A stretch of 64,000 nucleotides of DNA from Candidatus Moraniibacteriota bacterium. Lineage in GTDB: Bacteria > Patescibacteriota > Minisyncoccia > Moranbacterales > GCA-2747515. The translations under genes and the position numbers were made by a program. Positions 3,863 to 63,669 of this stretch are shown piece by piece. The notes below the pieces were generated by a model, which worked only from the letters and a program-made list of their open reading frames with translations, did no database searches and was not told the DNA's origin. Numbering within the stretch: the first letter of the stretch is position 1; each line of letters opens with the position of its first letter. The stretch is from the NCBI GenBank assembly GCA_046116545.1, contig CP175956.1:160276-224275 (forward strand), given 5' to 3'.

Positions 3863-3888
3863 ACATTTCTATTAAAAAATCTTTAAAA

Positions 3889-4125
3889 TTATTTTACACT
3901 AAATCTTTTATCTTTACTTATTGGTCGTGATTCGATTATTTCTACTACGTCACCAACCTTGCAAGTATTCTTCTCATCGTGAGCTTTATACTTTTTAGTA
4001 TCGATATACTTTTTCTTATACTTTTTGTGAGTTTTGAATGTATCTACTGCAACAACAATCGTTTTATCCATTGCATCAGAGACAACCTTGCCTTTCAAAA
4101 CTAATTGTCTACTATCTTTTGTCAT
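3889..4125 (-). CDS. rpsQ: 30S ribosomal protein S17
   Basis: GKVVSDAMDKTIVVAV...KYKAHDEKNTCKVGDVVEIIESRPISKDKRF. Confidence 0.9.
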   Translation of the reverse strand: MTKDSRQLVLKGKVVSDAMDKTIVVAVDTFKTHKKYKKKYIDTKKYKAHDEKNTCKVGDVVEIIESRPISKDKRFSVK

Positions 4126-4144
4126 AAAAATTCATTTATATAAA

Positions 4145-4339
4145 TTATTCGCTACAAGTCTTTTCTGCTACAACTGTCATAACTCGTGCCAAATCTTTTT
4201 TCGATTTACGGATATCACGATTATTTTGAGTCTTCTTCATCATTAGATCCATTTGTGTTTGATGAATGCTAGCTTTCAAATCGTCTGCTGTCTTGAGCAA
4301 TTCATCAATATTTTTTTCTCTAAGTTCTACAACTTTCAT
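4145..4339 (-). CDS. rpmC: 50S ribosomal protein L29
   Basis: 64 aa, LREKNIDELLKTADDLKASIHQTQMDL; position between L16 and S17. Confidence 0.85.
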   Translation of the reverse strand: MKVVELREKNIDELLKTADDLKASIHQTQMDLMMKKTQNNRDIRKSKKDLARVMTVVAEKTCSE

Positions 4340-4353
4340 ATTATCAATTTTAA

Positions 4354-5852: not shown

Positions 5853-5885
5853 AATTCTTTATTAATAAATCACTTCTTATACTAT

Positions 5886-6170
5886 TTATTTTCCGCTATC
5901 CAAATCCTTCTGCATTTTACCTCCATGTTTTGTAAATTTCCTTGTTGGTGAAAATTCACCTAACTTGTGTCCAACCATTTCATCAGAAATCAAAGCTTCT
6001 ATAAAGTCTTTTCCATTATGTATGGCGAATGTAAATCCAATCATATCTGGTGTAATTGTACAAGCTCTTGACCATGTCTTTATAACTCCTGTCTCTTTTG
6101 GAGTTTTACCCTCAACTTTTTTGATAACTCTCTCATCTACATATAACCCTTTTTTCAGTGATCTACTCAT
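5886..6170 (-). CDS. rpsS: 30S ribosomal protein S19
   Basis: [12 protein letters not shown]...[10 protein letters not shown]...[19 protein letters not shown]. Confidence 0.92.
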
Positions 6171-6182
6171 ATACTTACTATA

Positions 6183-14572: not shown

Positions 14573-14694
14573 AAACCAATACTCAGTAATTAATAACTAA
14601 AATTATACAACAACACTGTGTCAAAACAAAATATATGTACTATCTATTATATAAAAATAATTAATATTTAAAATGTTTATCACATTATTTATGT

Positions 14695-14731
14695 AAAAAA
14701 CCTCACGACAATATGTTGTCGTGAGGTTTTG
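14695..14731. terminator. Rho-independent terminator (bidirectional)
   Basis: AAAAAA-CCTCACGACA-ATATG-TTGTCGTGAGG-TTTTGG downstream of the 14760..14969 gene. Confidence 0.8.
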
Positions 14732-14759
14732 GTGCCTAGAGGAGGTTGATCTCTGCAGA

Positions 14760-14969
14760 TTAGACTCCTTTTTCGAGTTTAAAGGCTTTGAAAAATCTTT
14801 TACCGGCTGCAGTACGACGTTCTCGCACTTGGGCAAGATTTTTTGGTCTCCAAAGCGTGCCAGTAGTGTCACCATCTTTTGTTGGGTAGGTATCATGACA
14901 TGAGACAAGGATTGGGCATAAATTAATGCAAACTAGATTATCTAGTTGTAAGTCTGTATCTTGTGACAT
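14760..14969 (-). CDS. Small Cys/His-containing protein (69 aa), function unknown; weak L31-like pattern
   Basis: Strong SD AAGGAGAG upstream of the ATG; terminator downstream; MSQDTDLQLDNLVCINLCPILVSCHDTYPTKDGDTTGTLWRPKNLAQVRERRTAAGKRFFKAFKLEKGV. Confidence 0.6.
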   Translation of the reverse strand: MSQDTDLQLDNLVCINLCPILVSCHDTYPTKDGDTTGTLWRPKNLAQVRERRTAAGKRFFKAFKLEKGV

Positions 14970-15135
14970 TTCTTCTCTCCTTGTTTTTTAAAGCGTTAAT
15001 ATTGGATACTGTTAAAATAATACAATACTAATAAAAAGTCAAAGTATAAAAATAAAGTCATACATTGACAAGTGTACAAAAAGATGTAAACTAAATTCAT
15101 TATAAAAGTTGGTTCATTTAAAAAAGGAGATTTAC

Positions 15136-45505: not shown

Positions 45506-45537
45506 ATTTTTTACTTTTTTATCTAAAATTTTAAATT

Positions 45538-45576
45538 ATTTATCATACGAGCAACATTGTGCTCGTATGATAAATT
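45538..45576 (-). terminator. Strong rho-independent terminator after the small acidic protein gene
   Basis: 15-bp stem TTTATCATACGAGCA-ACATTG-TGCTCGTATGATAAA. Confidence 0.8.
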
Positions 45577-45586
45577 TATGTTTATA

Positions 45587-45739
45587 CTACCAATGACCAG
45601 TAATGCCGGATTTTTCCTTGAGCGTTTCTGGTTCGGGACCAAATCCAGCATCGTCTGACACATTTTCTTCACGATTTTCAACATCAACACTTAACTCAAT
45701 ACTTCTTTCATCTTTTTCTTCTACTTTACTGTCTGACAT
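45587..45739 (-). CDS. Small acidic protein (50 aa), unknown family
   Basis: Not in the ORF track (<60 aa). AGGAGA SD lies 6 nt before the ATG; MSDSKVEEKDERSIELSVDVENREENVSDDAGFGPEPETLKEKSGITGHW; flanked by the leader element and a terminator. Confidence 0.65.
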   Translation of the reverse strand: MSDSKVEEKDERSIELSVDVENREENVSDDAGFGPEPETLKEKSGITGHW

Positions 45740-45763
45740 TTTTAATCTCCTATTTTGTATAAT

Positions 45764-45860
45764 ATAAACAAAAAACCCATCTCACTATTGAGATCGGCTT
45801 ACTTTTGCTAACAATACTATCTTATCTACATCACATTACGAGCAAAAACAAACTGATCTC
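45764..45860 (-). promoter_or_regulatory. Conserved ~97-nt 5'-leader RNA element, copy 1 (terminator/antiterminator; candidate riboswitch or attenuator)
   Basis: About 97% identical to 46651..46747; contains the hairpin CCGATCTCA-ATAG-TGAGATGGG plus a U-tract 37 nt upstream of the start codon; the 5' GAGATC can pair with the terminator's 5' arm. Confidence 0.7.
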
Positions 45861-45954
45861 TTTTAATAAAGAAACCTATAAACCAAAAATACCAATATTG
45901 ATTTGTTGTTACTTGTTTTTGCATTTCACAAAAATAATATTTAACATATTTATA

Positions 45955-45982
45955 ATTATACATACCAAATTTATTTTGTCAA
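45955..45982 (-). promoter_or_regulatory. Sigma70-type promoter TTGACA-N16-TATAAT driving the leader and small acidic protein gene
   Basis: Minus strand: TTGACAAAATAAATTTGGTATGTATAAT. Confidence 0.7.
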
Positions 45983-46024
45983 AAAAATAAATCCCACCAA
46001 TCTATCAATGTAGATTGGTGGGAT
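45983..46024 (-). terminator. Rho-independent terminator after the 84-aa gene
   Basis: TCCCACCAATCTA-CATTGA-TAGATTGGTGGGA followed by TTTATTTTTTT. Confidence 0.85.
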
Positions 46025-46031
46025 AACTGTT

Positions 46032-46286
46032 TTATAACAACATTACTTTTTCATGAACTGTGCTACATCTTTGATTAACTATCAAAACACAAGAAGCAAA
46101 GGGACATTTTTTACCCTCAATTTTTTCTAAACAAAACGCACTACCAGCCAAGACAATATCACACTTCAATCCTGTCTGAATAGCCCTAGGTCTACTTACG
46201 GTACATTTTTTACCAGCCAAATTCTGACCTGCTAATCCTTCTGCTCTTAAAACTTGTTTTTCACCTACTGCTCCTGCTCCAGCCAT
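46032..46286 (-). CDS. Small Cys-containing protein (84 aa), unknown family, with two GKKC motifs
   Basis: GAGGAG SD; MAGAGAVGEKQVLRAEGLAGQNLAGKKCTVS...EGKKCPFASC; second gene downstream of leader copy 2. Confidence 0.65.
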   Translation of the reverse strand: MAGAGAVGEKQVLRAEGLAGQNLAGKKCTVSRPRAIQTGLKCDIVLAGSAFCLEKIEGKKCPFASCVLIVNQRCSTVHEKVMLL

Positions 46287-46312
46287 TTTAAGCTCCTCTT
46301 TTTTTAAAAAAC

Positions 46313-53211: not shown

Positions 53212-55597
<2,386 letters not shown>

Positions 55598-55861
55598 AAA
55601 TTGTATTTTTTTTGTAATGTTCCTCTTTTATAATTATACTCTTTAACCCATATTTTGACAAGGATTTGATTGACTTCTTTATAGAATTACATGTATACTA
55701 TAAGTGAAAAGTCTTCAGAATAGATTGCTGAATAACCCACTTTTGTGGGATCATGAAACCCACCTGGATTTCAGGGAAAGAATTTATTTTTTCCGATATC
55801 TTTTTTAAAGGGATTCATATGCTCTCTTGCATTGAGGACTTTTCATTTACAAAAAATTACA

Positions 55862-55898
55862 CAAATTCAAAAGGCAATCAACATTATATTGATTGCCT
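55862..55898 (-). terminator. Rho-independent terminator within the gene-free region
   Basis: Minus strand: GGCAATCAA-TATAATG-TTGATTGCC followed by TTTTGAATTT. Confidence 0.7.
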
Positions 55899-55941
55899 TT
55901 ATATATCTTGTTCCACGTCTCACGGACGTTTACTTTATTTA

Positions 55942-55992
55942 TCAGTCGCCACCATTACCACTATTCAAAAGAATGAACTCTTTTTTCAACAT
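55942..55992 (-). CDS. 16-codon mini-ORF with strong SD (possible leader peptide or small protein)
   Basis: AAGGAGGA lies 8 nt before the ATG; MLKKEFILLNSGNGGD; followed about 45 nt later by the terminator at 55862..55898. Confidence 0.3.
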   Translation of the reverse strand: MLKKEFILLNSGNGGD

Positions 55993-56403
55993 AATTACAT
56001 CCTCCTTATTGTAGAATCGTTACAATGAAACAGTCAAATATACAATATACCGACTGCGTTAATTACACATATGATACAACATTAATTTAAATAACGCAAC
56101 TCAAACAACAATAAGTCCTCACACATCTAAGCAAAACACACAACTAGTCTTTGCGAACAGAAGTGATGATTGCTGTGTTATGTGAAAGCAATCTCAAAAG
56201 TTTATAAATAATCTGACAGAGGTTGCTTCGTCGTGCCTCCTCCACCCAGGTGGTCCCTCTACTACGCTTTAAATTTAGAATAGTCGCTATACAGCTCCTT
56301 TCTTCATTTATCTTGAACAGAGTTCAATTTATTATGCCCTTGTGGTACACCTTGACGCAATGACACACTTTTATGGAGGCTTGTTTGAGGGTGTGAGGAA
56401 TTA

Positions 56404-56440
56404 CAAACAACAAAAAGATGACTTGTAAAGTCATCTTTTA
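56404..56440 (-). terminator. Rho-independent terminator after dnaJ
   Basis: AAAGATGACTT-GTAA-AGTCATCTTT with a flanking U-tract on the minus strand. Confidence 0.8.
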
Positions 56441-56444
56441 ATAT

Positions 56445-57521
56445 TTATAAATGTTTCAATTGTTCAATTATTTTCTTTTCTGTGCGAGAAAGCTTTGTTG
56501 GCACATCTACAATAATTTCAACTAAATGATCGCCTCTGCCAATTCCTCGTAACTTTGGGATTCCTTTACCTCTTATTTTATAAATTTCACCTGATTGAGT
56601 TCCTGCTGGTACTTTCATTTTCACATCTCCATCAACTGTTTCAATATTTATTTTATCTCCTAGTGATGCTTGAGCAAAATTAATGTGAGTAGTTGTGCGT
56701 ATATTATAACCATCTCGTACAAATCTATTATCATGTCTTACATGCACAGTGATTATAAGATCTCCTGCAGGTGCCCCATTAGCTCCAACCTCACCTCTTC
56801 CTCCGATAGCAATTGATTGCCCATCATTTATCCCAGCTGGTATATCTACACTTTCCTTTACTTCTTCACGATAATGTCCAACACCCTTACACTTAGAACA
56901 TTTTTTATCATAAGTCTTACCTTTTCCCATACAATCATCACAAACAGCTTGTTGTGCTATAGTTCCCAAGATTGTTTGCATTGTTTTTTGGACTTGTCCA
57001 CTTCCACTACATGTTTTACAAGTTTCTTCTTTTGCACCAGGTTCACCACCATTTCCATCACAATGACTACAACTAACTGCTTTATATACAGAAATTTCTT
57101 TTATTGCGCCTTTTATTACTTCTGAAAAATCTATTTCAATATCTACCTGAACATCACGACCTCTTCCTTCACCCTGACCTCCACCAAACATATCACTGAA
57201 CATATCACCCATTCCGCCTCCACCAAAATTAAATTCAAAACCTTGCCCACCGCCAGATTGTTGAAAATCAGAAAAATCAAAACCACCTCCAGCTCCACTG
57301 GGTCCACCACCTTCAAAAGTTTGACCAAATTGATCATACTGTGATCTCTTATTTTTATCAGAAAGTGTTTGATAAGCTTCATTAGCTTCTTTGAATTTTG
57401 CCTCATCACCACCAGCCTTATCTGGATGATGTTTATGAGCCATTTTACGATATGCTTTTTTTATATCAGCATCAGATGCATCCTTTGACACACCAAGTAT
57501 TTCATAAAAATCTTTTGACAT
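56445..57521 (-). CDS. dnaJ: Chaperone DnaJ
   Basis: J-domain DFYEILGV...HPDK; Gly-rich region; four CxxCxGxG zinc fingers. Confidence 0.92.
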   Translation of the reverse strand: MSKDFYEILGVSKDASDADIKKAYRKMAHKHHPDKAGGDEAKFKEANEAYQTLSDKNKRSQYDQFGQTFEGGGPSGAGGGFDFSDFQQSGGGQGFEFNFGGGGMGDMFSDMFGGGQGEGRGRDVQVDIEIDFSEVIKGAIKEISVYKAVSCSHCDGNGGEPGAKEETCKTCSGSGQVQKTMQTILGTIAQQAVCDDCMGKGKTYDKKCSKCKGVGHYREEVKESVDIPAGINDGQSIAIGGRGEVGANGAPAGDLIITVHVRHDNRFVRDGYNIRTTTHINFAQASLGDKINIETVDGDVKMKVPAGTQSGEIYKIRGKGIPKLRGIGRGDHLVEIIVDVPTKLSRTEKKIIEQLKHL

Positions 57522-58944: not shown

Positions 58945-61900
58945 CTATCTCATCTTTATATCGCCTTTTAATTTTATATCTCCTTTCAATTTCACTTGTC
59001 GAGGATCTGATATTGTAGTTACTGTTGTAGTAAAATTTGTTTCATTCCCATATCCTGTTCCTCCACTATTTATTGCTTTTGCTCTTATGAAATATGTTGT
59101 ATTTGGAGATAGTCCTACTAGTACACATGAATAAGTTCCTTCTGAATCAATTCCTGCACTACATTCGTTTGTATATGTTCCACTTATAATTCCCCATTCC
59201 ATAAATCTTTGTGGATTTTCAGATCCATCATCTATCACATTTCCATTTCCTGTTGCTGTTGTTGAATTTATGGATGTTGTATTTTGTGTTGATATAGTTG
59301 GTGCACTCAGCGGACAGTCAAGTCCTGCATCATTTATTGTCCAGCTATATGTTGATATGATATTTGATCGCTCTGTTGCACTATTACAATAATTTGCTGA
59401 TGAATCTAGTTGCACATTATTTTGAAGTGTTTGTGATTCCCATCCTATTAGTGTGGCATCATAGATTGTTGTTGAGAGTCCTGAATTTACAAACATCCCA
59501 AGCATATCAGTAACACTTCCTATTTGCCATGAGCCCATATTTTGATTAAATGCGGATGCACCATAAAACACATATGACATATTTGTAACAGATGATGTAT
59601 CCCATGAACTTAGATTTTGATTAAATGCATCTGTAAAAGAAAATAATTCAGACATATTTATCACACTACCTACATCCCAAGAGCTTATGTCTTGATTAAA
59701 TACGTCTGCATTAGTAAACATCCTATTCATATTTGTTACACTATTTACATCCCAAGAACCTATATTTTGATCAAATGCTCCTGCATTAGAAAACATCTCA
59801 TACATGCTTGTAACATTGCTTATATCCCAAGAACTTATATCTTGATTGAACATATTAGTACCTGTAAATAGTCTATCCATATTTATTACATTACTCGTGT
59901 TCCAAGAGCTTATGTCTTGATTAAATGAATTTGCACCATAAAACATTCCTGATATATCTGTAACATTACTTATATCCCAAGAGCTTATGTCTTGGTTGAA
60001 TGTATTAGTAATTGCAAACATGTGTGACATGTTTATTACTGATGAAGTATCCCATAAACTTATATCTCCATTAAATGCTGGTGTATAGTAAAACATATAT
60101 GACATATTTGTAACAGAGGATGTATTCCAAGAACTTAAATTACCGTTAAACGAAAATGCTTCTCTAAAAGCTTCCCACAATGACGTCACCGAAGATAGAT
60201 CAGGAGTATCTGTAAAAGTACCTATCATATTAATACATCCTAAAAAAGACCTTTCCATCGAAGTCCAAATTCCTATTCCCCATTGATTGATATCTAAAAG
60301 CTTTTCTCTATCTCCTGTGTTATTGAAGTAAATTCTAGGAAATCCAGTTTTTAATCCTGTATTATCTTTTATTCTTATAGTATAAGTTCCTGCAGCTCCA
60401 TAGTTACATGTATAATTTCCTGTTTGAGCTGTTGCGTCATCTGAACCATCATTATCACAATCTATATTATAGTTATAGCCGCCTCCTGTTGTTGGTATAG
60501 TAAATTGTGTATCTGATGAGCTTCCTGTGTTATCTGTTTTTACTGTTATTACAAAATCATTTTCTGGTGGTGTTGAACAATCCAACCCGGCATCGTTTAT
60601 CGTCCAACTATATGTTGATATAATATTAGCTCTTTCTGTTGCACTATTACAATAATTTGCTGATGAACCTAGAGTTACTCCATTTTGTAATACTTGTGAT
60701 TCCCAACCTATTAATGTTGCATCATAATTTGCTGTTGATAAATTTGTCGACAAAAATATATTTGTCATATTTGTTACATTGGCAACATTCCAGGTACTTA
60801 AATCTTGATTAAATGATGTTGAACGAAATACATTACTCATATCCATCACAGATGAAGTATCCCAAGAACTAACATTTCCATCAAATGCAGATACAACAAA
60901 CATGCTATTCATATCTGTTATAGATGAGGTATTCCAAAGACTTAGATTTTGATTAAAATTAGGTGCATTATAAAACATATACCTTGTACTCGTTACACTT
61001 GATGTGTCCCAAGAACTTATATCTCGATTAAATACAGATGTTCCATAAAACATACCACTCATATTTGTTACATTTGATGTGTCCCATGAGTTTACATCCC
61101 CATTAAATACTATTGCATTCCAAAACATAGAATTCATATCCGTTACTAACGACGTATTCCAGGAATCTAAGTCTTGATTAAATACAGAGTTATCAAAAAA
61201 CATATAACTCATATTAGTTACATTTGATGTATCCCATAAACCTATATCTTGATTAAAGATGGATGACATACCCGAAAACATCTGACTCATATTGGTTACA
61301 TTTGATGTGTCCCATGAAGTTATATCTTGATTAAATGAACTAGCATGTCTAAACATAGCCCTCATATCTGTTACTGCTGATATATCCAATGTACTTATAT
61401 CTTGATTAAATAAATCTGTATAGCTAAACATGGAGCTCATATCAGTTACTGCTGCAGTATTCCACGCAATTATATTATAATTAAATGCGTCTGCACCATA
61501 AAACATACTTGCCATATTTGTTACATTTGATGTGTCCCATGAAGTTATATCTTGATTAAATGCGATTGTGTCTGCAAACATGACGGACATATTTGTAACT
61601 GCAGATGTGTCCCAAGAACTTATATCTTGATTGAAAACTGGAGCATATCTAAACATATTATTCATATTGGTTACATTTGATGTGTCCCATGAAGTTATAT
61701 CTTGATTAAATGAAGTAGCTTCATAAAACATGTAACTCATATTTGTTATTGAAGACATATCCCAGTTATTTATATCCTGATTGAAAGAGTCTGTACCTCT
61801 AAACATTTGTGATAAATCCGTCACATTCGAAAGATTAGGTATATCTATAAAATTACCAACCATGTTGTTACACCCTGTAAAAGCTCTAAACATTGATATC

Positions 61901-63669
61901 CAAATTCCTGTTCCCCATTGATCTATTGATAAAAGTTTTTCTTTATCTCCTGCATCACTAAAATAAATCCTAGGAAATCCAGTACTAGCTCCTGAGTTAT
62001 CTTTTATTCTTACAGTATAAGTTCCTGCACTTCCGTAATTACATGTATAGTTCCCGGTTTGTCCTGTTGCCTCATCGCTTCCATCATTATCACAATCCAC
62101 ATTGTAATCATAGCCTACTCCAAATGTTGGTATTGTAAATTGTGTATCTGATGAGCTTCCTGTGTTATCTGTTTTTACTGTTATTACAAAATCATCTGTA
62201 GCTAGTGCTGGCATTACACATTGTTGATCTACTATTCCTCCGCTACTTATACTTCCACCGATTGAAATTGTTCCACCGCTGCCTAAACTTCCACCGTTTG
62301 AAATTGTTCCACCGTTTGAAATTGTTCCACCGCTGCCTAACTGAGGATTTGCACAACCTGTTGCAAAAGTTCCATCTGATTGAAGTTTTACTATATACAT
62401 ATCAAAACCACCTACGCCACCAGCATTTGTATATCCTGCAATTACATACCCCCCATCTAAAGTTTGAACTGCTGAATATGCTACTTCAGCATCAGCTCCA
62501 CCAATAGTCCTTGTTCCTCCTGAGCCAAATGTTGCATCTAATGCTCCTGTGCTTGTAAGTTTTGTTATATACATATCATAACTACCTGCACCAAAAGAAG
62601 TTGTATATCCTGCGATTACATATCCTCCATCTGAAGATTGAACTACCGAGTATGCATACTCGGTACCAGTGCCACCAATAGTTCTTGTTCCACCTGAACC
62701 AAATGTTGCATCTAATGCTCCTGTGCTTGTAAGTTTTGTTATATACATATCATAACCACCTGCACCAAAAGAATCTGTGATTCCTGCAATTACATATCCT
62801 CCATCTGAAGTTTGTATTATAGAAATTCCTGAATCAAAACCAGTGCCACCAATAGTTCTTGTTCCACCTGAACCAAATGTTGCATCTAATGCTCCTGTGC
62901 TTGTAAGTTTTGTTATATACATATCATAACCACCTGCACCAAAAGAACTTGTATATCCTACAATCATATACCCGCCATCTGAAACTTGTATTACAGAACT
63001 TGCTGAATCAGAACCTGTGCCACCAATAGTTCTTGTTCCTCCTGAGCCAAATGTTGTATCTAATGCTCCCGTACTTGTAAGTTTTGTTATATACATATCA
63101 TAACCACCTGCACCAAAAGAACTTGTATATCCTACAATCATATACCCGCCATCTGAAACTTGTATCACAGAACTTGCTAAATCAGAACCTGTCCCACCAA
63201 TAGTTTTTGTTCCTCCTGAGCCAAATGTTGTATCCAATGCTCCCGTGCTTGTAAGTTTTGCTATATACATATTACCGATACCATCACCAAAAGAACTTGT
63301 AAATCCTGCAATTATATACCCTCCATCTGAAGTTTGAGCTGCTGAATATGCATATTCAGCATCAGCTCCACCAATAGTTCTTGTTCCTCCTGAGCCAAAT
63401 GTTGTATCCAATGCTCCCGTGCTTGTGAGTTTTGTTATATACATATCATAACCACCTGCACCAAAAGAGTCTGTTCTTCCTACAACTACATGCCCACCAT
63501 CTGAAGATTCTATTACAAAAGATGCTAATTCAGCATCGGCTCCACCAATAGTCTGTGCAATAAACTCACCTGCCGCAGATACTTTTTGTGTTATAAAAAA
63601 GCTTAAAAATATCATCACCAAAAAAGATGCCGTTTTTTTATATAAATGCTTTTTGAAAAGATTATTCAT
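58945..63669 (-). CDS. Giant secreted/surface protein (1574 aa): delta-60 beta-propeller repeats, two tandem DUF285/BspA-type repeat modules, FN3
   Basis: Signal peptide; about 8 repeats of [12 protein letters not shown]...[31 protein letters not shown] (delta-60-like); Gly-rich linker; two modules each with an Ig-like prelude ([21 protein letters not shown]...DCDNDG) plus about 20 [20 protein letters not shown] repeats; C-terminal FN3-like domain. Confidence 0.85.
59290..62215. repeat. Nucleotide-level tandem duplication (~1.63-kb unit, two copies) inside the giant gene
   Basis: For example, 60340-60570 versus 61975-62205 are nearly identical, including a perfect 60-nt stretch gtaaattgtgtatctgatgagcttcctgtgttatctgtttttactgttattacaaaatcat. 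Confidence 0.8.
62380..63565. repeat. About 175-bp tandem repeats (delta-60 blade coding units) with long near-identical stretches
   Basis: Recurring ccaccaatagttcttgttcctcctgagccaaatgttg(c/t)atc(t/c)aatgctcc(t/c)gtgcttgtaagttttgttatatacatatcataac. Confidence 0.8.

What the first reader, a model, noticed from the sequence alone, without database searches (positions are those of the whole stretch)
55598..56444. About 840-bp gene-free, structure-rich region between a membrane-protein gene and dnaJ: candidate ncRNA locus
The rest of the window is tightly packed, with intergenic spacers mostly under 150 bp. This stretch has no convincing ORF; the 91-aa plus-strand ORF lacks an RBS. It does contain a 16-codon mini-ORF with a perfect AAGGAGGA SD followed by a clean intrinsic terminator. 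It also contains a long-range complementarity, GAAAAGTCTTC (about 55705) with GAGGACTTTTC (about 55837), and several short hairpins (CCCACAAAAGTGGG, GAAATCCAGGTGGGTTTC). One or more structured RNAs on the minus strand are plausible, for example SRP RNA, 6S, a reduced RNase P RNA, or tmRNA. A peptide-leader attenuator is also possible.
Basis: seen in the sequence. Interest (0 to 1): 0.6.

Follow-up and report, generated by a model that had tools for sequence, protein, structure and literature searches.

The report
New structured small RNA plus micro-ORF
The long "empty" spacer in this Candidate Phyla Radiation (Moraniibacteriota) genome holds a previously undescribed, evolutionarily conserved 147-nt folded RNA gene and a conserved 16-codon mini-gene, while the remaining ~400 bp looks like rearrangement filler.

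Summary
The 847-bp spacer is real and is the longest in the window. It has three parts.

It recurs in 11 distinct Moraniibacteriota sequences at about 80-88% identity, while the adjacent membrane protein is only 63-75% identical. Six helices are 96% paired. Fourteen pairs show compensatory changes (0 of 500 shuffles reach this). G·U pairs fit only the plus sense. A TTGAC-N16-18-TATAAT promoter ends 6 nt before the closing stem. No Rfam 15 family matches, including 6S, SRP, RNase P and tmRNA.

2. **A convergent 16-codon ORF at 55992-55942 on the minus strand**, with a strong Shine-Dalgarno sequence. It is conserved in 7 lineages with a coding-type substitution pattern. Its first stop is always the rare UGA. 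In four lineages that UGA is followed in frame by a Gly-rich tail and a second stop. A covarying hairpin with a CGUGA loop and a bidirectional terminator follow.

3. **Positions 56085-56407.** These occur only in near-identical strains, show no fold or coding signal, and lie at a synteny breakpoint.

Verdict: a genuine new sRNA family of unknown function, probably protein-binding, plus an odd micro-ORF. Interest is moderate.

The parts
55704..55850 (+). Novel structured sRNA of 147 nt. Helices: P1 55706-55718/55832-55844; P2 55722-55728/55821-55827; P3 (variable) 55736-55740/55745-55749; P4 55753-55761/55810-55818; P5 55763-55766/55772-55775; P6 55776-55782/55787-55793.
   Evidence: The covariance model R1 scores 172 bits here, and this is the only copy in the window. 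There are 11 distinct homologues. Cells are 96.3% paired, 14 pairs change on both sides, and 0 of 500 shuffles reach this. RNAalifold recovers the same helices. The single-sequence fold has z -5.0.
55670..55699 (+). Sigma-70-type promoter of the sRNA (TTGACT, 18 nt, TATACT). It ends 6 nt before P1.
   Evidence: Found by the promoter scan. TTGAC[TAG]-N16-18-TATAAT/TATACT/TATTGT/TATTAA is seen at the same place in all ten homologues examined (sequences).
55633..55661 (-). Promoter of mem122-gyrB (TTGTCA, 17 nt, TATAAT). It lies back-to-back with the sRNA promoter, with 8 bp between the two -35 boxes.
   Evidence: Scores 11 of 12 in the scan. CTTGTCAAAA and GGTATAAT are conserved in all aligned loci.
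55870..55900 (.). Bidirectional intrinsic-terminator hairpin shared by the convergent sRNA and mini-ORF.
   Evidence: Found by the terminator scan. A 14-bp consensus stem has many compensatory changes across 7 loci. U-rich runs follow on both strands.
55915..55929 (-). Small conserved hairpin after the mini-ORF: ACGUC-CGUGA-GACGU.
   Evidence: Four different fully complementary stems surround a conserved CGUGA/CGUGU loop. Four of the 5 pairs covary.
55942..55992 (-). Conserved mini-ORF, MLKKEFILLNSGNGGD*, ending in UGA.
   Evidence: Seven distinct homologues exist. Differences by codon position are 24/23/59, with 44 synonymous and 27 non-synonymous codon differences. The first stop is UGA in 7 of 7, against 4 of 64 long ORFs in the window.
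56000..56007 (-). Shine-Dalgarno sequence AAGGAGGA, 7 nt before the mini-ORF ATG.
   Evidence: Seen. GGAGG or GGGGA is conserved at the same place in all 7 loci.
56008..56084 (-). Mini-ORF 5' leader shared with L038, including the hairpin CAGUCGG...UUUGACUG (56031-56056).
   Evidence: blastn similarity with L038 extends to window 56084. The sequences are compared.
56085..56407 (.). Lineage-specific filler at a synteny breakpoint, with no detectable feature.
   Evidence: Found only in near-identical strains L028 and L030. Fold z is -0.5 and -1.6. There is no Pfam hit, no phage or plasmid hit, and no remnant of neighbouring genes.
56413..56439 (-). Terminator hairpin of dnaJ. It is palindromic and reads as a terminator on both strands.
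   Evidence: Found by the terminator scan. It lies directly after the dnaJ stop codon.

Best explanation
The spacer contains two small conserved genes and some filler.

**(1) The sRNA (shown).** Window 55704-55850 on the plus strand encodes a 147-nt RNA. Its architecture is:
- a 13-bp closing stem P1 and a 7-bp P2
- a three-way junction carrying a variable-length hairpin P3
- a conserved helix P4 that encloses two hairpins (P5, P6) and a 16-nt conserved single-stranded stretch

It is transcribed from its own sigma-70-type promoter, back-to-back with the mem122-gyrB promoter. It ends either at the U-rich run after P1 or at the bidirectional terminator about 50 nt further on.

**How the sRNA works (inferred).** The junction and loop nucleotides are almost invariant and only a peripheral stem varies. 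I found no convincing antisense target. So it most likely works through its three-dimensional fold as a stable trans-acting RNA that binds a protein or ligand, rather than as a simple base-pairing sRNA. I put about 0.4 on that mode of action.

**(2) The mini-ORF (shown).** A convergent 13-16-codon ORF on the minus strand is translated. It has a strong Shine-Dalgarno sequence and a third-position substitution bias. It always stops first at UGA, and a covarying hairpin and the shared terminator follow.

**How the mini-ORF works (inferred).** It is a micropeptide or termination-sensing ORF in which UGA, read by RF2, matters. In four lineages UGA readthrough would add the conserved xGGG tail.

**(3) The filler (shown).** Positions 56085-56407 are unconserved DNA left at a rearrangement junction.
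For: **Conservation.** The proximal ~250 nt are 81-88% identical in relatives whose mem122 protein is 63-75% identical.

**Structure.**
- 96.3% of cells are paired.
- 14 of 44 pairs change on both sides; 0 of 500 shuffles reach this.
- Slid registers give 33-58% paired.
- RNAalifold independently finds the same helices.
- P3 ranges from 5 bp to 16-17 bp.

**Strand.**
- P1 has 105 Watson-Crick and 25 G·U pairs with 0 mismatches in plus sense, against 25 mismatches in minus sense.
- A plus-sense promoter ends 6 nt before P1 in every homologue.
- The four lineages without the mini-ORF and shared terminator (L031, L035, L047, L051) have U6-7 directly after P1.

**Not coding.** No frame stays open across homologues.

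**No known family.**

**Mini-ORF.**

**Filler.**
Against: - No expression data could be consulted, so transcription, the ends and the strand are inferred from sequence only.
- Twenty of the 25 strand-diagnostic G·U pairs come from two invariant columns.
- P4 and P6 barely vary, so they are supported mainly by conservation and energy.
- All homologues were found through the neighbouring mem122 gene, so the linkage to mem122 and the narrow distribution may reflect how I sampled.
- A long-range stem such as P1 is not a canonical terminator hairpin.
- The protein-binding mode of action has no direct evidence.
Confidence: 0.78

Rival explanations
1. The structured element is a minus-strand RNA. It would be a riboswitch-like or leader element in a long 5' UTR of mem122-gyrB, transcribed from the mini-ORF promoter through the terminator.
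For: It has the same orientation as all flanking genes and lies upstream of mem122. The minus-sense sequence also folds better than shuffles (z -3.7). Most helices are symmetric Watson-Crick pairs that fit either strand.
Against: In minus sense P1 gets 25 mismatches and P6 gets 2, against none in plus sense. A conserved -35/-10 promoter for mem122 lies between the element and the gene. The plus-sense promoter and U-tracts would have no explanation. Four lineages have the element with no upstream mini-ORF transcription unit.
Confidence: 0.06
2. It is a known housekeeping RNA, with 6S the most plausible, then SRP, RNase P or tmRNA, too diverged in CPR bacteria for the Rfam models to detect.
For: It resembles 6S in size (about 150-200 nt), in being a stand-alone gene, in its long closing stem and in its strong conservation. 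CPR lineages are poorly represented in Rfam seed alignments (my own background knowledge).
Against: None of these families hits at E<=10 in the window or E<=1 in six homologous loci, and ARAGORN finds no tmRNA. The supported fold is a three-way junction with only 2 nt on the 3' side of the junction. That is not a 6S rod with a large two-sided central bubble, nor an SRP hairpin with a GNRA-capped domain IV. At 147 nt it is far too small for RNase P RNA or tmRNA.
Confidence: 0.05
3. The mini-ORF, hairpin and terminator form a leader-peptide transcription attenuator. It would control read-through into mem122-gyrB, and the structured element would be part of that leader.
For: A short ORF with a strong Shine-Dalgarno sequence is directly followed by an intrinsic terminator on the same strand as mem122-gyrB. 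The ORF has a run of Gly codons and an invariant UGA stop.
Against: RNAalifold finds no conserved alternative (antiterminator) pairing, only the hairpin and the terminator. In four lineages the Gly codons lie after the stop. mem122 has its own conserved promoter. The module is absent in 4 of 11 lineages that keep the sRNA and mem122-gyrB.
Confidence: 0.07
4. The sRNA and mini-ORF form a type I toxin-antitoxin-like pair. They are convergent genes whose 3' ends overlap at the shared terminator, and the RNA would repress the peptide mRNA.
For: The two are convergent and share a bidirectional terminator in 7 of 11 lineages. The module is never found without the sRNA in the sequence examined.
Against: The peptide is 13-16 residues, basic, and too short for a membrane-spanning toxin. 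The sRNA persists without the ORF in four lineages. Any overlap is limited to the terminator hairpin. A duplex test between sRNA and mini-ORF mRNA gave 9 of 300 shuffles as good or better, which I judged uninformative.
Confidence: 0.04
5. The whole spacer is a non-functional AT-rich remnant of a rearrangement.
For: The spacer sits at a synteny breakpoint. In L001 dnaJ is followed by argS, in L003 gene order is mem122-gyrB-p206-dnaJ, and neither argS nor the glycosyltransferase gene is in this window. The distal 320 bp has no signal of any kind.
Against: The proximal 480 bp is conserved, covaries and shows a coding signature across lineages.
Confidence: 0.02

Closest known systems
Orphan structured bacterial ncRNAs found by comparative genomics (for example the raiA motif RNA and other large orphan motifs from intergenic-region surveys)
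   Same: A stand-alone gene with its own promoter and terminator. A multi-helix junction with near-invariant junction and loop nucleotides and a variable peripheral stem. Function unknown. Recognised by covariation.
   Different: No sequence or structure match to any of the 4227 Rfam 15 families. So far seen only in one Moraniibacteriota subclade, always next to mem122-gyrB.
6S RNA (Rfam RF00013)
   Same: Similar size class, a long closing stem formed by the 5' and 3' ends, a stand-alone gene, and high conservation.
   Different: No large two-sided central bubble. The fold is a three-way junction with 2 nt on the 3' side. No Rfam hit even at E<=10.
PepNL and TnaC termination-arrest leader peptides of E. 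coli (PMC11890864, PMC8450073)
   Same: A very short ORF (PepNL has 14 residues) whose stop codon is specifically UGA. In PepNL, readthrough of UGA15 carries ribosomes to a downstream in-frame stop. Here there are 13-18 codons, UGA in 7 of 7, and in 4 lineages a short in-frame extension ending at a second stop.
   Different: I saw no resemblance between the peptide sequences and ran no formal comparison. No arrest has been demonstrated. There is no obvious regulated gene downstream before the terminator. Two lineages have a sense codon in place of the UGA.
Type I toxin-antitoxin loci with convergent, 3'-overlapping genes (for example bsrG/SR4 of B. subtilis; from my own background knowledge)
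   Same: A small ORF and an sRNA transcribed convergently, sharing a bidirectional terminator.
   Different: The peptide is basic and too short to span a membrane. The sRNA is far more structured and conserved than a typical antitoxin, and it occurs without the ORF.

Membership tests
6S RNA | Match to the Rfam 6S covariance model | tested here: not met
   No 6S hit at the gathering score, at E<=10 on 55400-56700, or at E<=1 on six homologous loci.
6S RNA | Rod-like fold with a large central bubble, unpaired on both strands, between the closing and terminal stems | tested here: not met
   The covariation-supported fold is a three-way junction. The 3' side of the junction is 2 nt.
6S RNA | Binds the sigma-70 RNA polymerase holoenzyme and templates product RNA (pRNA) | not testable with these tools
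   Needs biochemistry.
Bacterial SRP RNA (4.5S) | Match to the Rfam small or large SRP models; a domain IV hairpin with a GNRA tetraloop and conserved internal loops | tested here: not met
   No hit. The conserved loops are GAUUU and UUUA, not GNRA.
RNase P RNA (types A and B) | Match to the Rfam RNase P models; a length of about 330-400 nt with a P4 pseudoknot and conserved regions CR-I and CR-V | tested here: not met
   No hit. The conserved element is 147 nt.
tmRNA | A tRNA-like domain plus a tag reading frame, detected by ARAGORN or Rfam | tested here: not met
   ARAGORN finds only two tRNAs in the window. There is no Rfam tmRNA hit.
Leader-peptide transcription attenuator | A leader ORF followed by a terminator on the same strand | tested here: met
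   The mini-ORF at 55992-55942 is followed by the hairpin at 55870-55900 with a U-rich tail.
Leader-peptide transcription attenuator | A conserved antiterminator structure that competes with the terminator | tested here: not met
   RNAalifold on 7 homologues predicts only the small hairpin and the terminator.
Leader-peptide transcription attenuator | The regulated gene lies directly downstream and depends on read-through | tested here: inconclusive
   The next gene on that strand is mem122, about 270 nt away, and it has its own conserved promoter. Read-through cannot be measured here.
PepNL/TnaC-type termination-arrest peptide | A short ORF whose stop codon is specifically UGA (read by RF2) | tested here: met
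   The first stop is UGA in 7 of 7 homologues, against 4 of 64 long ORFs in the window.
PepNL/TnaC-type termination-arrest peptide | The nascent peptide stalls the ribosome at the stop codon | not testable with these tools
   Needs toeprinting or a peptidyl-tRNA assay. I saw no resemblance to PepNL or TnaC and ran no formal comparison.
Bacterial selenocysteine recoding (UGA plus SECIS) | A hairpin at a fixed short distance 3' of the in-frame UGA | tested here: not met
   The distance from UGA to the conserved hairpin is 20, 20, 35 and 39 nt in the four lineages. The hairpin is kept in three lineages that have no internal UGA.
Bacterial selenocysteine recoding (UGA plus SECIS) | selA, selB, selD and tRNA-Sec present in the genome | not tested
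   Only a 64-kb window and short contigs were available. The nearby tRNAs are Met, Met and Asp.
Type I toxin-antitoxin | A hydrophobic membrane-active toxin peptide, typically 20-60 aa | tested here: not met
   The peptides are 13-16 aa (up to 24 aa if read through), basic and Gly-rich.

The most novel reading that the evidence does not exclude
The 147-nt RNA is the RNA subunit or ligand of a machine specific to Candidate Phyla Radiation bacteria. It would be a new RNP, a new self-cleaving or other catalytic RNA, or a new aptamer class. Its convergent partner is a micropeptide gene that uses programmed UGA readthrough or recoding to append a Gly-rich tail. That would be the first such recoding signal described in Parcubacteria-type CPR bacteria, which otherwise use the standard code.
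Probability: 0.15. Interest if true: 0.75.

Novelty: new member of a known kind. Interest (0 to 1): 0.5.

Why it matters
CPR/Patescibacteria have tiny genomes and are almost uncultured. My literature searches found essentially nothing on their regulatory RNAs.

This RNA is more conserved than the protein gene next to it, has a complex fold supported by covariation, and matches no Rfam family. It therefore gives a concrete, testable handle on RNA-based biology in this group. It could also seed a new family model for genome annotation.

The micro-ORF has an invariant rare UGA stop and, in four lineages, an in-frame Gly tail maintained beyond that stop. It is a small but clean candidate for studying RF2-dependent termination control or stop-codon readthrough outside model organisms.

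The result also shows that only about half of the "empty" spacer is functional. The rest is a rearrangement scar.

Tried and rejected
**Approaches that produced nothing useful**
- Anchoring the comparison on dnaJ gave no conserved spacer. Gene order differs among relatives, and the element travels with mem122, not dnaJ.
- A search for decayed remnants of neighbouring genes (argS, the MFS gene and others) found only noise.
- Distant blastn of the spacer against phage and plasmid collections found no match. The conserved core was absent from viral contigs.
- Duplex prediction between the sRNA and the mem122 leader was no better than shuffles (58 of 300 as good). Against the mini-ORF mRNA it gave 9 of 300, which I judged uninformative. 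By eye, only a U6:A8 run could pair with the mem122 leader.
- Five literature searches for a described CPR, Patescibacteria or Moranbacteria RNA of this kind found none.

**Interpretations considered and rejected**
- My first RNAalifold models used local hairpins (AUGC...GCAU, UUCAG...CUGAA, GAAAUCC...GGGUUUC). I rejected them for the P2/P4/P5 model, which carries the compensatory changes.
- A rod extension UGAAU/AUUCA was rejected because L047's change breaks it but preserves P4.
- The promoter-like TTGACT-18-TACAAT at 56037-56008 was rejected as the mini-ORF promoter. Its -10 box abuts the Shine-Dalgarno sequence and is not conserved in L038.
- A suppressor tRNA next to the L033 mini-ORF was ruled out. 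The three tRNAs are Met, Met and Asp.
- An alternative genetic code (UGA = Gly) is unlikely. gyrB and its neighbours are called full length under code 11 in the same contigs.
- The 34-codon GTG ORF at the sRNA's 5' end and the 91-aa ORF are not conserved as open frames.
- An origin of replication (oriC) was considered because gyrB is adjacent. Cumulative GC skew does not turn here, and long-range compensatory changes indicate RNA.
Full report
**1. The observation**

The window comes from a Candidatus Moraniibacteriota (CPR/Patescibacteria) genome. Its DnaJ is 79-80% identical to DnaJ in Moraniibacteriota metagenome-assembled genomes (MAGs). One source names its 122-aa membrane protein as a hypothetical protein of that phylum.

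Positions 55598-56444 lie between dnaJ (56445-57521, minus) and a 122-aa hydrophobic ORF that I call mem122 (55229-55597, minus). gyrB follows mem122. With ORFs of at least 100 aa as a crude gene map, this is the longest spacer in the window: 847 bp against a median of 57 bp.

None of the small ORFs in the spacer matches Pfam. The whole spacer folds better than shuffled sequence on both strands (z -4.1 and -5.8).

**2. Known RNA families**

cmscan against all 4227 Rfam 15 families finds only two tRNAs in the 64-kb window at gathering thresholds. A permissive scan of 55400-56700 at E<=10 lists only chance-level matches, such as PyrD leader at 21 bits against a cut-off of 47. It finds nothing for 6S, SRP, RNase P or tmRNA. 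ARAGORN finds no tmRNA. Six homologous loci scanned at E<=1 give only tRNAs in L033 and one chance-level microRNA match (mir-H11, 25.8 bits against a cut-off of 70) in L036.

**3. Synteny**

Loci anchored on dnaJ show no DNA similarity to the spacer, because gene order differs:
- In L001 and L002, dnaJ is followed after about 90 bp by argS and a glycosyltransferase gene.
- In L003 the order is mem122-gyrB-p206-dnaJ.
- In L041 it is argS-glycosyltransferase-[569-bp gap]-mem122-gyrB.
- Neither argS nor the glycosyltransferase gene is anywhere in this window.

A near-identical strain, L028, shares the window sequence from 56407 leftwards at 99.8%. Upstream of that point it has a different gene and a palindromic element. 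The few differences between the strains fall within about 45 nt of the junction.

So the spacer sits at a rearrangement breakpoint, and its content travels with mem122-gyrB. No remnants of neighbouring genes are detectable.

**4. A conserved structured RNA**

Loci anchored on mem122 show that the roughly 250 nt next to mem122 are 81-88% identical in lineages whose mem122 protein is only 63-75% identical.

A covariance model built from ten sequences finds exactly one copy in the window, at 55704-55850 on the plus strand (172 bits). It finds eleven distinct homologues in all and nothing else in 419 kb of related loci.

The structure is:
- P1, 13 bp: GAAAAGUCUUCAG/UUGAGGACUUUUC.
- An internal loop.
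- P2, 7 bp: AGNNNGC/GCNNNCU.
- Junction strand UGAAUAA.
- P4: AUGAA-A-CCC/GGG-A-UUCAU.
- Inside P4: P5 (CCUG/CAGG), P6 (GAAAAAA/UUUUUUC) and a conserved 16-nt single strand, CGAUAUCUUUUUUAAA.

On the 11-sequence alignment:
- 96.3% of cells form standard pairs.
- 14 of 44 pairs have changes on both sides.
- No shuffle out of 500 reaches these values.
- Sliding the 3' partners by 1-3 columns drops pairing to 33-58% (the 10-sequence hand alignment gives the same picture).

RNAalifold run without my structure recovers the same six helices. The window sequence alone folds that way with z -5.0.

P1, P2, P3 and P5 carry the covariation. P4 has a single compensatory event, in L047. P6 shows only G·U changes.

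No reading frame is open across the homologues, and the sequences differ in length by numbers of bases that are not multiples of three.

**5. Strand and transcription signals**

In plus sense P1 has 105 Watson-Crick and 25 G·U pairs and no mismatch. In minus sense those 25 become C·A or A·C mismatches. P6 behaves the same way. Twenty of the 25 come from two invariant columns. The other one-sided changes also favour the plus sense.

A TTGAC[T/A/G]-N16-18-TATAAT-like promoter ends 6 nt before the first P1 nucleotide in every homologue (sequences; window 55670-55699).

The four lineages that lack the downstream shared terminator (L031, L035, L047, L051) have U6-7 immediately after the 3' strand of P1. 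The others have UUUUCAUUU and then a bidirectional terminator 25-60 nt further on.

The mem122 promoter (TTGTCA-17-TATAAT, 55661..55633) is conserved in all loci. It lies between the element and mem122, back-to-back with the sRNA promoter.

I therefore read the element as an independent plus-strand sRNA gene, divergent from mem122-gyrB. No expression data could be consulted, so this remains an inference from sequence.

**6. What the RNA does**

Nothing I could test identifies a function. Duplex predictions against the two neighbouring transcripts are not better than shuffled controls. No viral, phage or plasmid copies exist. The searchable literature holds no description of such an RNA in CPR bacteria.

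Three features are typical of RNAs that act through their fold: near-invariant junctions and loops, a variable peripheral stem, and a multi-helix junction. Such RNAs bind a protein or ligand, or are catalytic. These features are less typical of simple antisense sRNAs. I commit to a trans-acting, fold-dependent RNA, most likely protein-binding, at about 0.4. I give a base-pairing role through the U-rich single strand about 0.25.

**7. The mini-ORF module**

On the minus strand, a strong Shine-Dalgarno sequence (56007..56000) precedes ATG 55992. The ORF encodes MLKKEFILLNSGNGGD and ends at TGA 55944..55942.

Seven distinct lineages carry a homologue:

| Locus | Peptide |
|---|---|
| window | MLKKEFILLNSGNGGD* |
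| L038 | MMKKSFMLLARVGDGG* |
| L033 | MLRKRWMLRPVAL*NGGG* |
| L036 | MLQKRFMLPRVAL*KGGG* |
| L041 | MMLIRKRFMVPRVAHCGG*GGGGG* |
| L046 | MITRKRFMLPRVAN*GNGG* |
| L040 | MLRKRYMLRPVASRPCGAKNKDS* |

Among the five RKRF-type sequences, differences by codon position are 24, 23 and 59. Synonymous codon differences (44) outnumber non-synonymous ones (27), and include CGC/AGG/AGA Arg swaps. The ORF is therefore very probably translated.

The first stop is TGA in all seven, although only 4 of 64 long ORFs in the window end in TGA.

In four lineages the TGA is followed, in frame, by 4-5 codons that are mostly GGN and vary only at the third position. An in-frame stop comes immediately after. The window has AGT (Ser) where L046 has TGA. 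That pattern is hard to explain unless the tail is translated at some frequency.

The closest documented analogue is E. coli PepNL. It is a 14-residue arrest peptide whose UGA15 is read through by Trp-tRNA to a downstream in-frame stop (PMC11890864). This is an analogy of layout only. I saw no sequence resemblance, and arrest is untested.

After the ORF comes a 5-bp hairpin with four different fully complementary stems and a conserved CGUGA/CGUGU loop, then the long terminator hairpin, which also covaries. No conserved antiterminator is predicted. A SECIS role for the hairpin is unlikely, because its distance from the UGA varies from 20 to 39 nt and it is kept where there is no internal UGA.

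In the sequence held, the module occurs only next to the sRNA. The sRNA occurs without it in four lineages.

**8. The rest of the spacer**

Similarity to L038 stops at 56084. Positions 56085-56407 are found only in near-identical strains. They fold no better than shuffles (z -0.5 and -1.6) and have no protein-family, phage or plasmid match. I treat them as filler at the breakpoint. The hairpin at 56413-56439 is the dnaJ terminator.

**9. Verdict**

There is a structured-RNA locus, but on the other strand. It is none of the named families, and it occupies 147 nt of the 847.

The RNA is a new family of the familiar kind "stand-alone structured bacterial sRNA of unknown function". Its distribution, as sampled, is narrow.

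The micro-ORF with an invariant UGA stop and a maintained post-stop Gly tail is the oddest feature and remains unexplained.

Noticed in passing
L028:1879-2021: A strain variant replaces dnaJ upstream of the shared spacer with another gene. That gene is followed by an element of about 140 bp bounded by perfect inverted repeats of about 27 nt (GGTAGGGACAGTGCCTTGTGCCTGTCC...). It may be a MITE-like insertion at the junction.
   Followed up: partly
window 45506-46312: This is the second-longest spacer in the window (807 bp). It contains an 84-aa minus-strand ORF (46032-46286) rich in Gly, Ala and Cys, which may be a real small gene. No Rfam hit at the gathering score.
   Followed up: no
window 14573-15108, 3863-4353 and 5853-6182: Further unusually long spacers (536, 491 and 330 bp) in an otherwise compact window. 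Not examined.
   Followed up: no
L001:8200-8370: Downstream of the glycosyltransferase gene, and upstream of an ORF that looks like an isoleucyl-tRNA synthetase, lies ...AAGGTGGTACCACG.... This resembles the T-box consensus and suggests a T-box leader in this CPR relative.
   Followed up: no
window 58945-63669: A 1574-aa minus-strand ORF built of two kinds of tandem repeat: [15 protein letters not shown] units and many [16 protein letters not shown]-type units. It looks like a large repeat-rich surface protein.
   Followed up: no
L051:10-61: Two near-identical direct repeats (aaactggtt...cctgtgataag) lie just beyond the 3' end of the sRNA homologue, at the contig end.
   Followed up: no
L033:418-739: A cluster of tRNA-Met, tRNA-Met and tRNA-Asp lies directly upstream of the mini-ORF module in this relative. 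L035 also has a tRNA-Asp in its locus, at 279-354.
   Followed up: partly
window 55598-55632 and the homologous loci: The mem122 5' leader (ACAAAAAAAAUACAAUUUAUG) is highly conserved and A-rich. Most relatives have no recognisable Shine-Dalgarno sequence there; the window has AAAGAGGAA. The last 66 nt before the ATG are conserved even in lineages that lack the sRNA.
   Followed up: partly
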